Below, one piece after another: positions 8,475 to 56,150 of a stretch of DNA of 64,000 bases. The stretch's first letter is position 1. Every line of letters starts with the position of its first letter. Below the pieces are notes generated by a model. It did no database searches and was not told where the DNA came from. It was given only the letters and a program-made list of their open reading frames with translations. The stretch is from the human T2T-CHM13v2.0 reference genome, Homo sapiens. The translations under genes were made by a program, and so were the position numbers. The stretch is from NCBI RefSeq assembly GCF_009914755.1, contig NC_060945.1; one strand, given 5' to 3'.

Positions 8475-8637
8475 ATCTTTCAGGAGCTTGGTCAATGTGT
8501 TCTGGACAAAGCAGGAAGATGTGACTGAAATCCTGAAAGCTGTCGGCTCCTGCAGCACAAGGATAATGATACATCTGGGTACATTTCTCTTCACAGCATT
8601 TGATAGTGGCTCCAAAGTGCTTACAAAATGCACATCG
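8475..8637 (-). CDS. BAGE2: BAGE exon 3 (163 nt) in the BAGE frame: (L)DVHFVSTLEP...TKLLKD
   Basis: Acceptor tttctctcctttacccctttcag|CG and donor AT|GTAAGT; phase fits exon 2 (CT+C=Leu); contained in ORF 8448..8693. Confidence 0.85.
8475..8637 (-). pseudogene. KMT2C: Duplicated KMT2C (MLL3) exon 7, PHD-type zinc finger region
   Basis: The other frame reads RCAFCKHFGATIKCCEEKCTQMYHYPCAAGADSFQDFSHIFLLCPEHIDQAPER, near-identical to KMT2C residues ~284-337. No preceding KMT2C exon was recognised in the window. Confidence 0.9.
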
Positions 8638-46099: not shown

Positions 46100-46955
46100 A
46101 TGTGCATGAACAAATATACTTCATCTTTACTGGTCATTGAACCTGGTGTGAACTACGAATCCTCTTTTTCTCACATGCCACATCCCTCAACAAATCTTTT
46201 GGGCTCTGCCTCAACATATGCAGAATTACTTCAACATTTCTCTGATGCCTATCATGCTTCAAATCATCTGTCACCCTGCTAATATTATCTTAACTAACAT
46301 GCCTGCTTCTTCCTTGATCTCCTTCATTCTAGTCTCAACACAGCAGCCAGCATGAGAGTTTGAGAGTCTTGGTCAGATAAAGCCAGTCCTCCACTCAAAA
46401 GCCCCCAAAGGACTCTCATCTAATCCAGAGTAAAAGTCAAAAGATCTCACAATGGTCTACAAGGCCCTGCACAATCTGACTCCCCATGCTACTTCTCTTA
46501 TGATGTTTTCTCCATAACTCAGCTCCTGCCACATTAGCCCTTTCAGTTCTATGAACATGCTAAGCACATTCCTGCCTCGGGGCTTTTGCACTCACTGTTC
46601 CCTGCATCAGCAATACTCTTTCCCCAAATGATTGCCTTTGCATTCTTATTTCCTTTAAGATTCTATTCAAACATCAGCTCACTGAGGCCTTCTCTGATGG
46701 CCCCACTTAAAATAATCCAACCCAGCCCTTCCCGTCCCTTCCATGGCTTTATTTTTTTCCATAAAACTTAACGTCTTCTGACAACCTATAAATTCTACCT
46801 ATTTGTTTGACTGTCTTCTCCCTTATCCCCACTAAAATATCAGCTCCGTGAAGGAAGGCAATGAACTTTGTTTTGCTCACTGCTGTATTTCCTGTGCTTA
46901 TAGAATATTGCCTAATACATTGTAGGTGCTAAATGATTATTTAAGTGAATTAATT
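46100..46955 (+). mobile_element. L2 3' region
   Basis: cacattcctgcctc.gggcttttgcac...cagctcc.tga.gg...tttgttttgctcactgctgtatt...gtaggtgct. Confidence 0.85.
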
Positions 46956-47324
46956 TAGCAACTATCAACAACAAGCTGAGTATAAAACAGCAGGAAAATG
47001 AAAACCATCTAGGTCCGTGACAATTTAATTGAGCCATTGAATTACACCTGGACTTCTAGTCATGTGAGGTAAATTTTATTTATAGTTTAAGCCATTTTTA
47101 ATTAAAATTTTTGTTATTTGAAGCTGCAAAGTACCCAAAATAGGGTACTGGTAGGCAGTTTGCAAAAAAAAATGTGACAAATATCATCAATTTAACTCAA
47201 TCATAAGGCATGCAAATTAAAATAACCATGAAATAATGTCACTCAAGAAAAAATAAGTTTGGTACATGTATAATCCCACTTAATATGACTCACTACATTA
47301 GTAGCATTAAAAAAATTTTAAGGG

Positions 47325-48663
<1,339 letters not shown>

Positions 48664-48664
48664 A

Positions 48665-48766
<102 letters not shown>

Positions 48767-49765
48767 CTACAATAGGATGCAGAAAGTGGCAGTGTTAGAG
48801 CCTCACCCTGTCATGCTGCCCACTGGGTGGCTGGGGCCAGTTTCAGCGAAGGCACTCACACCCACCCTCCAAAGTCCAGCCTCTCCTCCTAGACCAAGCT
48901 GGCCTCCTGACCTGGGGTGGGGACTGGAGACACCACAGTGTCCGAGGCTAGTTGGGGAGCAAGAACAGCAGAAACTCAGACCCAGCCAGTCCTCCCCACC
49001 CAAGTACCAGTTCCCATTCCTGACTCCTCCACCCACAGGACCCTGAGCCCCCATGGTGCCCACTACTCCATGCCTGGGGCTCCCAGATGGTACCCACAAC
49101 ACAGAGCAAGAGGGCAAGGGCCGGGTAACCATGGTGGGTGTGAGGGCCCTGCGGTGGTCAGAGGATTGCCACAAAAACTCTGTGCACCCTCCGCGTTCCA
49201 ACACGAGCAGAAGTTCCCCTTTCCTCCATGGACAATGCAACATTTCACAGCTCCCCTAAAGCACCCCCGACTGCCTGCCAGTTGGCATTGTTGCTGACAT
49301 TGTAGCTCATGATAGCTCACCCAACCCGCCCCCTGCATCGGCCAGTGTAGCAGCTAATAATGCCCCTAATTCCCCACCACCTTCCGCTGGCAGTGCACGA
49401 CGGCACACACAACCTGCCTCCAACCCCCCACCACCTTAGGCAGTGTAGACTCTGATAGCGCAGCAAACCTGCCCCACTGCCAGCAATTCAACACCTGATA
49501 GTGCCACCCACCAGCCCCCCACGGCAGGGAGTGCAGCTCCAAAAGCACACCAAACCCGCTCCCCCACCACCCCGCAAGCAGGCAGTGCAGCCGCAGAGAG
49601 CACACCTACCCTGCCACCTTTCTACTACTCTAACAGAGATGCAGTCTCCGTCACCACTACCAACCGTAGCCAGGCGAGCCGCGGTGGCCAAGGCTGCAGC
49701 CTCCAGCGTTGGGCACAGTCCCCACCTTCTCCTAGATCTCTAGCCGGTCAAGAGCAGCTCCAGCT

Positions 49766-49912
49766 GCCAGCCACCCTCCTACCACTCAGGCTGCACTCCT
49801 ACCACTCCAGCCGCCATCTTACCACTCCAGCCGCCATCTTACTGCTCCGGCCGCCATCTTACTGCTCCAGCCCCACTCCTACCGCTCAGGCCGCCCTCCT
49901 AACACTCCAGCT
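49766..49912. repeat. 20-bp tandem repeat, ~7 units (accactccagccgccatctt)
   Basis: Units start at 49781, 49801, 49821, 49841, 49861 and 49881, with degenerate edges. Confidence 0.9.
49823..49837 (-). CDS. BAGE2: BAGE coding exon 1 (MAAGV); alternatives 49843-49857 (MAAGA) and 49803-49817 (MAAGV)
   Basis: aagATGGCGGCTGGAGTG|GTAAGA: strong Kozak context followed by a phase-0 donor, repeated three times at a 20-bp period. Confidence 0.75.
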
Positions 49913-50057
49913 GCGCTGCCATCTCTGTTGCCACCACCATCCAGAGCGAGACGAGCCACGGTGTTACAGGCTCCAGCCTCCAACTCCCCCTTCTCCTGGT
50001 CCTCTAAGCCGGGAACAGAGCAGCTCAGCGGGAGATACCAGAGACCCTAAACTGGCG
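49858..50057 (-). other. BAGE 5' UTR (approximate TSS ~50057) containing uORF 49899-49940 MVVATEMAAQLEC*
   Basis: Matches my recollection of the BAGE cDNA 5' end (CGCCA.TTTAGGGTCTC...GGCTTAGAGGACCAGGAGAAGGGGGAG); uORF read directly from the sequence. Confidence 0.65.
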
Positions 50058-50059
50058 TG

Positions 50060-50320
50060 AGGCCTGCTCGGCATGCACATGGGGTTACGCGCATGGTTTC
50101 TGGACTACATGTTCTGATTGGGTGAGAGAAAATCTCTAGGCCTTCTCTGATTGGACTTTATTTTCATACTCTAATTGGTTGTCCTAAGACTTTCATCCAA
50201 TCAGAACATGATAACAAAGTCCAATCAGAGTAGGCCTCCGGGCTTTCTCTTATCCAATCCTGGAAAGTGTAGTCCACGAACCGCATATGCATAACTTCAG
50301 TACATAAATGGGGCTGAAGA
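50060..50320. promoter_or_regulatory. Bidirectional promoter: six CCAAT boxes and two ACTACA (ZNF143/THAP11-like) motifs in mirror symmetry
   Basis: ATTGG at 50117, 50150, 50174 and CCAAT at 50197, 50221, 50254; GGACTACA at 50102 and TGTAGTCC at 50268. Confidence 0.75.
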
Positions 50321-50480
50321 AGAGTCAGGCTGTTCCAGGTTCTTCTGTGTCTGCTCACCGAGCTGCTCCGAGCCCGGCTTAGAGGACCAGGACAGACTGG
50401 AGGCTGTAGCCTGCTGCACTGTGGCTGGCCTCCCTGCAGTTGGTGGCGACAGACACTGTAGTGTGGCTGGAAAGGTAGGA

Positions 50481-51778
50481 AGGGGAAAATAGTTTTGGGA
50501 TAGATGGAAGGGTAAAGAGGGTGGTTAGTGCCAAAAGGAAAAAAGGATGGCGAGCCGGAGAAGTCATTGCATAAAGACGGTGAGGAAAAGATGTTGGGAA
50601 AAAAAATTGGGGGGTAGATGGAGGGGGAAAAACAGGGTGGTAAACAGGAGGGAGAGAAGGTTTCACAGAAAGATGGTGGGGAAAAAGTTTTTGGGTAGAT
50701 GGAAGGGGGTAAGAGAGGGTCGTGAGGGGGGAACGGGGATGAGCAGGAAGGAGAGAAGGTTTGCAAAAATATGGTGGGGAGAGAAGAAAGGGAAAGAAGA
50801 CTGTGGGTAAAAAGATTTTGAGTGATGGAGGGGGGAAAAGGGTGACAAGTGGGAGGAGAAAAGAGGGTGCAGAGAGGGAGGGGGAAGAGAGAGTGGCGAG
50901 CAGGAGGGAGAGAAGTTTTTGCGAAAAGACAGTGAGGAGAGAAGCTTTTGGGTAGATGGAGGGGGGAAAGAGGGTGGCCAGTGGGAGAAGGGTAAAGAGA
51001 GTGGCGAGCCGGAAAGAGAAAAGGTTTTGCTAAAAGACGATAGGCAGAAAAGAAAGTGTAGAAAGAAAAGACAGTGGGTAAAAAGTGTTTGGGTAGATGG
51101 AGGGGGAAAAGAGGGTGGCAAGTGGGAGGAGAATAGAAAGTGTGGCCAGAGGAAGTGGGGAAAGAGGACTGGGAAAAAGGCGATGGGGAAAATAGTTTGG
51201 GGTAGATGGAGGGCAAAAAGAGGGTGGCAAGCAGGATAGAGGAAAGAAGAGGGCGAGCGGGAAGAGGGGAAGGCTTTGTGAAAAGATGGCAGGGAAAAAT
51301 TGGGGAGGTAGATGGGTTAAAAGAGCGTGGTGAGCAGGAGTAGAGAAGAGGCTTTGCAAAAAGACGGCAGGAAAATGTTTTTGGGTAGATGGAGAAGGGA
51401 AAGGGTGGCAAGGAGGAAGGGAAAAAAGACGATAGGGAAACAGTTTTGGGGTAGACGGAAGGGGAAAGAGAGGGTGGCGAGCAGCAGGAGTGGGGAGAAG
51501 GCTTTGGGAAAAGATGAGGGAAATGTTTTTGGGGAGATGAAGGAGCAAAAGAGGATGATGAGAGCGGGAGGCGGAAAAAAGGGTGGCCAGAGAGAGGGAG
51601 AAAACACGGTGGGGAAAAGTTTTGGGGTAGATGGGTGGGGAAAACGGAAGTGAGCGGTATAGTATAGAAGGCTTTGCAAAAAGACAATGGGGAAAAAATG
51701 GTGGGGAAAAAGTTTTGGGGTAGATGGAGGAAGAAAAAGGGTGGCGAGAGAGGGAGCCAAAGACGGTCGGGAAAAAAA
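50481..51778 (+). repeat. Purine-rich (G/A) degenerate tandem repeat
   Basis: About 13 recurrences of ttttgggtagatggagggggaaaagagggtggc...agaaggttttgc.aaaagac at 60-130 bp spacing. Confidence 0.85.
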
Positions 51779-51779
51779 T

Positions 51780-56150
<4,371 letters not shown>

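What the first reader, a model, noticed from the sequence alone, without database searches (positions are those of the whole stretch)
49766..49912. 20-bp minisatellite whose unit packs a Kozak ATG and a 5' splice site
Seen on the minus strand: AAG-ATGGCGGC(C/T)GGAG(CA/TG)|GT, with ATGs at 49857, 49837 and 49817 and donors at 49862, 49842, 49822 (GTAAGA) and 49802 (GTAGGA). Each GTAAGA donor overlaps the next ATG. Because 20 is not a multiple of 3, only the ATG of the unit whose donor is used is in frame; upstream ATGs become out-of-frame uORFs that stop at TAA in the array or TGA in exon 2. The 49862 donor removes all three ATGs and leaves the internal Met (MKEESP), which drops the hydrophobic leader. 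Inference: donor choice and copy number set the N-terminus (MAAGA vs MAAGV), the translation level and the junction-spanning nonamer (AAGAVFLAL/AAGVVFLAL, compare the BAGE1 HLA-Cw16 epitope AARAVFLAL). Some named BAGE 'genes' may therefore be isoforms of one locus.
Basis: partly seen in the sequence, partly recalled or inferred. Interest (0 to 1): 0.78.

Follow-up and report, generated by a model that had tools for sequence, protein, structure and literature searches.

The report
BAGE start codon sits in minisatellite
A 20-base repeat at the first exon border of the cancer-testis gene BAGE2 carries a start codon and a splice site in each good copy, and its copy number differs among the gene's duplicates, but use of several splice sites within one copy is unproven.

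Summary
A 20-bp array (window 49767-49911, 7.2 units) spans the BAGE2 exon 1/intron 1 border.

In the same assembly I found 10 paralogous loci. They carry 1, 2 or 3 ATG units, and array lengths step by 20 bp between flanks that are 95-99% identical. The chr13:10.86 Mb copy, spliced after its first ATG unit, encodes exactly the printed 43-aa BAGE1 protein. So MAARA, MAAGA and MAAGV are explained by separate loci that differ by unit number and by CpG transitions inside the unit. Isoforms of one locus are not needed.

In both documented cases the donor used is the first G|GTAAG in the array. The closest precedent, the F7 intron 7 VNTR, uses a single donor.

No RNA data could be examined, so donor choice within one locus stays untested. 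This is a new variant of a known kind, of moderate interest.

The parts
49767..49911 (-). 20-bp minisatellite, 7.2 units, spanning the exon 1/intron 1 border of BAGE2
   Evidence: TRF; register laid out; direct-repeat family D2
49843..49862 (-). ATG unit 1: GTAAGA donor at 49862-49861, ATG at 49857-49855. The unit ends in GCA, so the next donor (49842) has A at -1. In the RefSeq transcript this ATG opens a 25-aa out-of-frame uORF that overlaps the main ATG.
49823..49842 (-). ATG unit 2: donor at 49842-49841 (GCA|GTAAGA, would give MAAGA). ATG at 49837-49835 is the in-frame start (MAAGV) when the RefSeq donor is used.
   Evidence: hub exon table
49803..49822 (-). ATG unit 3, identical to unit 2. 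Its first bases, GTG|GTAAGA at 49822-49821, are the RefSeq donor. Its own ATG (49817-49815) is intronic in RefSeq.
   Evidence: hub exon table
49783..49802 (-). Degenerate unit with a GTG|GTAGGA candidate donor at 49802-49801. It would give MAAGV with two upstream array ATGs.
49863..49882 (-). Degenerate unit with a GCG|GTAGGA candidate donor upstream of all array ATGs
49899..49922 (-). Oldest recognisable unit variant; it carries an ATG (49922) that opens a 7-aa uORF in exon 1
   Evidence: present in 10 of 10 loci
49823..50080 (-). BAGE2 exon 1 (RefSeq NR_169269.1)
   Evidence: hub table; sequence
48666..48766 (-). BAGE2 exon 2. It starts in phase 0 with VFLAL and matches Pfam BAGE PF08180 profile positions 6-28.
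48655..48665 (-). GTGAGT donor of exon 2, formed at a BAGE2-specific junction with a 5'-truncated antisense Alu
49613..49705 (-). Second copy (71% identical) of the roughly 277-bp module whose first copy contains exon 1 and the head of the array
   Evidence: family D12
50360..50483 (+). Inverted copy (72% identical) of exon 1 bases 49894-50026, upstream of the annotated transcript start
   Evidence: C21:10714360-10714483, + strand, query 75-207; analogous inverted hits lie beside the other paralogs

Best explanation
The array is a lineage-expanded minisatellite that all BAGE loci carry at the exon 1/intron 1 border. One unit type (GTAAGATGGCGGCCGGAGCG and its CpG-decayed variants) supplies the start codon. 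The first bases of the following unit supply the 5' splice site 15 nt later. So the first five codons of BAGE proteins (M-A-A-G/R-A/V) are minisatellite DNA, and the BAGE1 T-cell epitope spans the junction between that unit and exon 2.

I infer that each locus mainly uses one donor, the first G|GTAAG in its array. N-terminal diversity then comes from differences between loci, not from regulated donor choice. These differences are gain or loss of 20-bp units and transitions at three CpGs of the unit:
- CCGG to CCAG gives Gly to Arg (BAGE1).
- GCG to GTG gives Ala to Val (BAGE2).
- GCG to GCA is silent but puts A at -1 of the next donor.

In BAGE2 that last change disables the donor after the first ATG unit. 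Splicing moves one unit downstream, and the first ATG stays in the mRNA as a strong-context, out-of-frame uORF that overlaps the main start. This should lower translation of the MAAGV ORF.

Shown: array anatomy, frames, paralog variation, identity of the chr13 product with BAGE1, and the RefSeq donor. Inferred: the single-donor rule, the direction of the CpG changes, and the uORF effect.
For: - Anatomy and frames.
- Paralogs: 10 full-length loci in the same assembly. Array lengths between fixed anchors are 153, 133, 113 (five loci), 180 and 173 (two loci) bp. ATG units per locus are 3, 2 or 1, plus variant forms in three fragments.
- Pattern search: 17 hits against 0 in the reversed control. 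All 13 exact ATG units lie in the 10 BAGE loci. The three chr5 hits read GTAAGAGGG, with no ATG.
- BAGE1: the chr13:10.86 Mb locus, using its first ATG unit, the adjoining GCG|GTAAGA donor, exon 2 and read-through, gives a 43-aa ORF. It is identical to BAGE1_HUMAN as printed in the appendix of PMC11350539. MAARA is encoded by 1 of 10 loci and MAAGV by 1 of 10.
- Donor rule: the first G|GTAAG in the array directly follows an ATG unit in 7 of 7 gene-type loci. It equals the RefSeq donor in BAGE2 and the BAGE1-compatible donor on chr13. None of the 3 fragment loci has any G|GTAAG.
- U1 pairing: 49822 scores -8.0 kcal/mol, against -4.5 for 49842 and 49862.
- CpG changes: all differences among ATG units of the seven gene-type loci fall at three CpGs (unit strings). 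BAGE loci are reported hypermethylated in normal cells (PMC3084872, passages).
- Precedent: in the F7 IVS7 VNTR, reiterated donors are functional but only one is used (PMC1557585, abstract and sections 6, 9, 11).
- Pfam: BAGE profile positions 6-28 match exon 2, leaving positions 1-5 to the unit.
Against: - No transcript data were available. I saw one of two RefSeq transcripts, and only through the hub table.
- The first-G|GTAAG rule rests on two cases. The BAGE1 case is inferred from protein identity and assumes the patient's allele had the same array as this assembly.
- My U1-pairing measure does not separate the RefSeq donor (-8.0) from the upstream GCG|GTAGGA at 49882 (-7.9) or the downstream one at 49802 (-7.7). 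Read literally, the F7 rule (most upstream functional site) would pick 49882. So something beyond U1 pairing, probably A at +4, must matter. No MaxEnt-type score was computed.
- Exon 1 already has four other uATGs, so the added effect of the array uORF may be small.
- BAGE2 is annotated as a transcribed pseudogene.
- The array states do not follow the flank tree. The chr13:10.86 Mb copy is nested among one-unit loci but shares unit variants with BAGE2. The history therefore involves conversion or repeated slippage, and the direction of changes is not secure.
- From recall only, one named BAGE protein combines MAAGV with the CFIF end. No locus here encodes that under any donor.
Confidence: 0.6

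Rival explanations
1. One reading: within the single BAGE2 locus several array donors are used at appreciable levels. One gene then yields the MAAGA, MAAGV and leaderless MKEESP proteins with different uORF loads, and some named BAGE genes are such isoforms.
For: All four donors are in the right phase for their own ATG. The chr13:10.86 Mb locus has two donors of equal U1 pairing (-8.2 each), and the BAGE1 protein requires the upstream one, so an upstream array donor can be used while an equal one lies 20 nt downstream. With exon 2 read-through, the BAGE2 locus could give a 39-aa MAAGA product identical in protein to that of chr22:11.10 and chr21:7.88 Mb.
Against: RefSeq uses 49822 (hub table). 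Donors 49842 and 49862 have A at -1 and the weakest U1 pairing. In the F7 VNTR, reiterated donors do not compete. MAARA needs a base change absent from BAGE2, and five separate loci already encode MAAGA, so isoforms are not required to explain the named proteins.
Confidence: 0.2
2. Neutral by-product: at BAGE2 the array has no consequence beyond RNA structure. The locus is a poorly translated transcribed pseudogene, and the unit-number differences among paralogs are neutral slippage in heterochromatic duplications.
For: RefSeq labels BAGE2 a transcribed pseudogene (hub table). Testis expression is low, 2.9 TPM (PMC8997349, passage). There are five uATGs ahead of the main start. The exon 3 reading frame is out of frame with the KMT2C-derived exon. 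More distant copies of the element range from 2-3 units to 24 units with no ATG.
Against: A BAGE1 peptide whose first four residues are unit-encoded is presented on melanoma cells (PMC2868811, passage), so at least one family member is translated from a unit ATG. All 7 gene-type loci keep an ATG unit directly followed by G|GTAAG, against 0 of 3 fragments. That split amounts to one phylogenetic contrast only.
Confidence: 0.3

Closest known systems
F7 intron 7 37-bp VNTR with reiterated 5' splice sites (Borensztajn et al. 2006, PMC1557585; abstract and sections 6, 9, 11 read)
   Same: A minisatellite whose elements span an exon/intron border, so the used donor sits among near-identical donor sequences at a fixed period. 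The pseudo-sites are competent but normally silent.
   Different: The F7 period is 37 bp, the repeat carries no start codon and the exon is internal. In F7 the used donor is the first of identical copies. In BAGE the unit also carries the ATG 15 nt upstream of the next donor, the exon is the first exon, weaker donor copies lie upstream of the used one, and the period (20 bp) shifts the frame between units.
[quoted passage not shown] 2002, 2003; known to me only through citing passages)
   Same: Same genes and same distribution: expressed genes on chr13 and chr21, and fragments on chr9, 13, 18 and 21. My search finds gene-type loci with KMT2C-derived exons and three fragments on chr9, chr18 and chr21.
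   Different: The passages I could read say nothing about a minisatellite, about the start codon lying in it, or about unit-number differences. This assembly also has gene-type copies on chr15 and chr22. I could not read the primary papers.
Overlapping upstream ORFs that depress translation of a main ORF (established knowledge of scanning initiation)
   Same: ATG 49857 has a strong context, is out of frame, and its ORF ends downstream of the main ATG.
   Different: Here the uORF is created by duplication of the unit that also holds the main start. Its presence depends on which repeat's donor is used.
Tandem alternative 5' splice sites a few bases apart (GYNGYN-type; recalled, no call)
   Same: Closely spaced alternative donors that change a few residues.
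   Different: The spacing here is 20 nt, it comes from a repeat unit, and each choice brings its own start codon.

Membership tests
BAGE protein family (Pfam PF08180) | Protein matches the Pfam BAGE profile above the gathering score | tested here: met
   Exon 2 translation scores 49.9 bits against a cut-off of 20.9, E 3.1e-13, covering profile positions 6-28 of 28. The chr13 copy scores 49.4 bits.
BAGE gene family | Pericentromeric or acrocentric short-arm locus with KMT2C/MLL3-derived downstream exons | tested here: met
   Exon 3 matches chr7:153.45 Mb at 99%, and 7 exon-1 loci have an exon-3 copy 41-58 kb away. Window 46700-47300 matches chr7:153.57 Mb at 95%.
BAGE gene family | Cancer/testis-restricted expression | not testable with these tools
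   Literature passages only.
Minisatellite / VNTR | Head-to-tail units of about 10-100 bp | tested here: met
   Period 20, 7.2 copies, score 134.
Minisatellite / VNTR | Unit number varies | tested here: inconclusive
   It varies among 10 paralogous loci of one genome (113-180 bp), and from 2-3 to 24 units in more distant copies. Variation between alleles of one locus could not be tested, because only one haploid-like assembly was available.
VNTR spanning an exon/intron border with reiterated donors (F7 IVS7 type) | An element of the array spans the border, and donor-like copies recur at the repeat period | tested here: met
   RefSeq exon 1 ends at 49823, inside the array. GT[AG][AG]G occurs at 49882, 49862, 49842, 49822, 49802 and 49782.
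VNTR spanning an exon/intron border with reiterated donors (F7 IVS7 type) | Only one of the reiterated donors is used | not testable with these tools
   No RNA data. One RefSeq transcript (hub table) and the BAGE1 protein each imply a single donor.
Alternative 5' splice-site isoforms | Two or more donors of one locus documented in transcripts | not testable with these tools
   Only exon coordinates of 1 of 2 RefSeq transcripts were seen. Literature searches listed no paper whose title or listed abstract start concerns this; I opened only a few of them.
uORF-controlled mRNA | Upstream ATG in good context whose ORF overlaps the main start out of frame | tested here: met
   ATG 49857 has the context agtaagATGG and opens a 25-aa ORF ending at a TGA in exon 2.
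uORF-controlled mRNA | Measured effect on translation | not testable with these tools
   Needs reporter assays or ribosome profiling.

The most novel reading that the evidence does not exclude
The BAGE open reading frame was born inside an unstable minisatellite. A single G-to-T change turned a GTAAGAGGG unit, the form kept in the 24-unit chr5q35 array, into GTAAGATGG, which created a start codon welded to a splice donor. Since then, unit slippage and decay of three methylated CpGs in that unit have set three things locus by locus, and possibly allele by allele: the N-terminus, the HLA-C-presented epitope (only one of ten loci encodes AARAVFLAL), and the uORF load. One CpG at the unit boundary acts as the switch that decides which repeat's donor and ATG are used. 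People would then differ in which BAGE antigens they can make.
Probability: 0.3. Interest if true: 0.6.

Novelty: new variant of a known kind. Interest (0 to 1): 0.45.

Why it matters
- Gene birth: it gives a concrete, sequence-level account of how the first codons, signal-peptide start and T-cell epitope of a hominid-specific cancer-testis antigen family arise from repeat DNA, and why the paralogs differ there.
- Antigen prediction: in this genome only the chr13:10.86 Mb locus can encode the classical BAGE1 epitope. BAGE2 encodes AAGVVFLAL behind an overlapping uORF.
- Read assignment: RNA-seq or methylation reads over exon 1 can be assigned to paralogs by array length and by the unit's CpG variants.
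- Splicing: the locus is a natural second test bed, after F7 IVS7, for how the spliceosome chooses among reiterated donors. The added read-out is that each choice changes the reading frame.

Tried and rejected
- Primary BAGE papers were not held: PubMed ids 12676563 and 12461691, and PMC1581429. I did not ask for Boel 1995. I therefore cannot say whether the array is described there.
- Supplements of PMC12673850, which might list the short BAGE proteins, could not be read. The N-termini of BAGE2-5 in protein databases are recalled, not checked.
- Literature searches for a description of the repeat listed nothing relevant by title or listed abstract start: BAGE + minisatellite (13 papers hold both terms, 12 listed), 'B melanoma antigen' + 'tandem repeat' (4 papers, 3 listed), BAGE2 + splice/isoform, and the variant peptides (2 papers, both for the BAGE1 form only).
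- Local gene conversion between BAGE2 and chr13:10.86 Mb: sliding-window identity gives 96.1% (153 sites) against 94.0-94.7% (133 sites) for one-unit loci over the array. That is too few sites to decide. The discordance with the flank tree remains unexplained.
- Shapiro-Senapathy scores from a recalled matrix did not reproduce the values printed for F7 when worked by hand, so I report none. No MaxEnt model was available.
- I considered that the array might be a chance feature of this copy alone. It is present in all 10 loci, so I rejected that.

Full report
**What is in the sequence**

Tandem Repeats Finder reports one array at window 49767-49911, with period 20, 7.2 copies, 77% matches and score 134; it is also read as period 40.

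On the minus strand, in register from each GT, the units begin as follows:
- 49882: GTAGGA.
- 49862, 49842, 49822: GTAAGATGGCGGC...
- 49802 and 49782: GTAGGA.

The units at 49842 and 49822 are identical 20-mers. ATGs lie at 49857, 49837 and 49817, each in the context aagATGG. RefSeq exon 1 is 49823-50080 (hub table), so the annotated donor is GTG|GTAAGA at 49822. The exon/intron border therefore lies inside the array.

I spliced each candidate donor to exon 2 (48666-48766) and exon 3 in silico.

| Donor | Product |
|---|---|
| 49842 | MAAGA + VFLAL... |
| 49822 | MAAGV + VFLAL... |
| 49802 | MAAGV + VFLAL... |
| 49862, 49882 | internal start only, MKEESP (context ggctgATGA) |

With the RefSeq donor, ATG 49857 opens a 25-aa out-of-frame ORF. 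It overlaps the main ATG and ends at a TGA in exon 2. With donor 49802, ATG 49857 opens a 12-aa ORF that ends at a TAA in the array.

These are short uORFs present in every isoform.

**Paralogs in the same genome**

The window's assembly could be searched. The 501 bases around the array have 10 full-length matches: chr21:10.71 Mb (the window itself), chr13:10.86, chr22:11.10, chr15:5.47, chr13:13.84, chr13:10.11, chr21:7.88, chr9:44.20, chr18:15.03 and chr21:11.72 Mb. The tool states that its counts are lower bounds.

| Locus group | Array length between fixed anchors | ATG units |
|---|---|---|
| BAGE2 (chr21:10.71) | 153 bp | 3 |
| chr13:10.86 | 133 bp | 2 |
| five loci (chr22:11.10, chr15:5.47, chr13:13.84, chr13:10.11, chr21:7.88) | 113 bp | 1 |
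| chr9:44.20 | 180 bp | 2, separated by a degenerate unit; the first lacks a following GT |
| chr18:15.03, chr21:11.72 | 173 bp | one altered unit (GATCATGG) and one normal |

A genome-wide pattern search for the ATG unit, allowing at most 1 mismatch, gave 17 hits and 0 for the reversed control.
- The 13 exact hits all lie in these ten loci.
- Three one-mismatch hits lie in a chr5:181.84 Mb array and read GTAAGAGGG, without an ATG.
- The remaining hit is the chr9 unit that lacks a following GT.

**Which loci are genes**

The KMT2C-derived exon 3 has 11 copies.
- One is KMT2C itself, at chr7:153.45 Mb.
- Seven lie 41-58 kb from an exon-1 locus: BAGE2, chr21:7.88, chr13:13.84, chr13:10.86, chr13:10.11, chr15:5.47 and chr22:11.10 Mb.
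- Three have no exon-1 partner.
- The chr9, chr18 and chr21:11.72 Mb loci have no exon 3 nearby.

This fits the published picture of expressed genes on chr13 and chr21 plus fragments on chr9, 13, 18 and 21 (UniProt text quoted in PMC6630768, passage; PMC2868811, passage).

I built a maximum-likelihood tree of the roughly 3.4-kb flanks with the array removed (10 rows, 3366 of 3797 columns kept, all 7 inner branches well supported).
- The three fragments separate from the seven gene-type loci.
- BAGE2 is sister to the other six, on a long branch (0.044).
- chr13:10.86 Mb is nested among one-unit loci.

The array states do not follow this tree. BAGE2 and chr13:10.86 Mb share unit variants that the one-unit loci lack. 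The array has therefore changed by repeated slippage or conversion. A sliding-window comparison had too few sites to decide between these.

**BAGE1 is a different locus, not an isoform**

At chr13:10.86 Mb, the first ATG unit, the adjoining donor GCG|GTAAGA and exon 2 read through its 3' end give a 43-aa ORF. There is no usable donor at the exon 2 end in that copy (gtgctt). The ORF is identical to BAGE1_HUMAN as printed in the appendix of PMC11350539.

| Product | Encoded by |
|---|---|
| MAARA | 1 of 10 loci (chr13:10.86, first unit) |
| MAAGV | 1 of 10 loci (BAGE2) |
| MAAGA | five one-unit loci, chr13:10.86 second unit, BAGE2 first unit, and the second ATG unit of the three fragments |

Separate loci therefore suffice to explain the three N-termini. 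From recall only, databases list an MAAGA-type short BAGE protein. By protein sequence it could come from chr22:11.10 or chr21:7.88 Mb, or from BAGE2 with donor 49842 and exon 2 read-through. Only its nucleotide sequence would tell.

**Where the differences come from**

The ATG units of the seven gene-type loci differ only at three CpGs of a GTAAGATGGCGGCCGGAGCG-type unit. That form is kept intact in chr9 (unit strings).

| Change | Effect |
|---|---|
| CCGG to CCAG | Gly to Arg, the R of the BAGE1 epitope |
| GCG to GTG | Ala to Val (BAGE2) |
| GCG to GCA at the unit's last base | silent in the protein, but puts A at -1 of the next donor |
| GGCGGC to GGCAGC | silent |
| GCCGG to GCTGG | silent |

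The two fragment loci chr18 and chr21:11.72 Mb carry one additional non-CpG change. BAGE loci are reported to be heavily methylated in normal cells (PMC3084872, passages), which fits CpG decay. The direction of these changes is inferred by parsimony.

**Which donor is used**

By pairing to the 5' end of U1 snRNA:

| Donor | Site | Watson-Crick pairs | Energy (kcal/mol) |
|---|---|---|---|
| 49862, 49842 | GCA\|GTAAGA | 5 | -4.5 |
| 49822 (RefSeq) | GTG\|GTAAGA | 6 | -8.0 |
| 49802 | GTG\|GTAGGA | 6, plus 2 G:U | -7.7 |
| 49882 | GCG\|GTAGGA | 6, plus 2 G:U | -7.9 |
| chr13:10.86, donors 1 and 2 | GCG\|GTAAGA | 6 and 7 | -8.2 each |

In both documented cases the donor is the first G|GTAAG of the array: BAGE2 in RefSeq, and BAGE1 by its protein. 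Such a site directly follows an ATG unit in 7 of 7 gene-type loci and is absent from 3 of 3 fragments. By the tree, that split is a single contrast.

The measure is crude. It does not separate 49822 from the GTAGGA sites, so A at +4 or the wider context must also count.

**Closest precedent**

A literature search (confirmed as the only hit) found the F7 intron 7 case, PMC1557585. I read the abstract and sections 6, 9 and 11.
- It is a 37-bp VNTR whose first element spans the exon 7/intron 7 border.
- Five downstream pseudo-donors are functional but silent.
- Only the most upstream functional site is used, even when downstream copies are improved to a consensus value of 91.

This argues that a repeat of this kind normally yields one donor per allele. 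Sequence changes in the repeat, rather than regulation, move the donor. BAGE differs in several ways:
- The unit also carries the start codon.
- The exon is the first exon.
- Weaker copies lie upstream of the used donor.
- The 20-bp period shifts the frame between units.

**Origin of the array**

The whole 5' segment of BAGE2 (window about 51811 to 48663) is colinear at 77-92% identity with four chr5q35 copies. It comprises an upstream purine-rich repeat, exon 1, the array, intron 1 and exon 2.
- The copies at chr5:178.35, 176.58 and 179.39 Mb have only 2-3 imperfect units.
- The copy at chr5:181.84 Mb has about 24 units (472 bp, period 39/79, 91-92% matches), none with an ATG.

So the repeat expanded independently in different copies, and the ATG form is confined to BAGE loci.

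Pfam's BAGE profile (28 positions) matches exon 2 at positions 6-28. That leaves positions 1-5 to the five repeat-encoded codons.

**Verdict**

- The coupling of start codon, donor and frame is real.
- Unit number does differ, between loci.
- Multi-donor use within one locus is untested and disfavoured by donor quality and by the F7 precedent.
- The claim that named genes are isoforms of one locus fails for BAGE1 and is unnecessary for the rest.

I could not read the primary BAGE papers. The searches listed no paper that, by title or listed abstract start, describes the repeat, so novelty is provisional. I file it as a new variant of a known kind, a VNTR at an exon border, with moderate interest.

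Noticed in passing
window 48655-48666 and downstream to about 46700: BAGE2-only rearrangement. Homology to the nine paralogs stops right after exon 2, where a 5'-truncated antisense Alu begins. The junction creates the GTGAGT donor of exon 2; the paralogs read gtgatt or gtgctt there. KMT2C-derived sequence (window 46700-47300, 95% to chr7:153.57 Mb) lies 2.8 kb from the array in BAGE2 but 16.5-18.8 kb away in six paralogs, implying a deletion of about 16 kb. This may be why BAGE2 alone splices on into KMT2C-derived exons.
   Followed up: partly
window about 49214: BAGE2 lacks about 400 bp of intron 1 that is present in the other nine loci and in the chr5 copies.
   Followed up: partly
window 50480-51800: Purine-rich (plus strand) satellite-like repeats upstream of the transcript start. 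They have many families of 21-82-bp motifs, most spaced about 66-157 bp apart. They are shared with the chr5q35 and chr13:18.10 Mb copies.
   Followed up: no
window 50360-50483 against 49894-50026: Inverted repeat (72% identical) flanking the annotated transcript start. Equivalent inverted hits lie beside the other paralogs.
   Followed up: no
window 48682-48704 against 49967-49989, and 49613-49705 against 49890-49982: The 3' half of exon 2, a stretch of intron 1 and the middle of exon 1 are copies of one module (87% and 71% identical). The sequence after exon 2 in the paralogs continues the same module, with GGTAGGAG-like units. Both coding exons thus seem to derive from one repeated element.
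   Followed up: partly
L011 1689-2160 (chr5:181.84 Mb): A 472-bp expansion of the same minisatellite: about 24 units alternating between two subtypes, period 39/79, with no ATG.
   Followed up: partly
window 8475-8637 (exon 3): The BAGE2 ORF reads this KMT2C-derived exon out of its original frame. Another frame is open across it and reads like a PHD-finger stretch. The exon has 11 copies in the assembly, three of them without a BAGE 5' segment: chr22:6.64, chr14:3.54 and chr21:6.95 Mb.
   Followed up: partly
L003 and L004 (chr22:11.10 Mb, chr15:5.47 Mb): Gene-type BAGE loci with exon 1, array, exon 2 and a KMT2C-derived exon lie on chr22 and chr15 in this assembly. The literature passages I read name chr9, 13, 18 and 21 only.
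   Followed up: no
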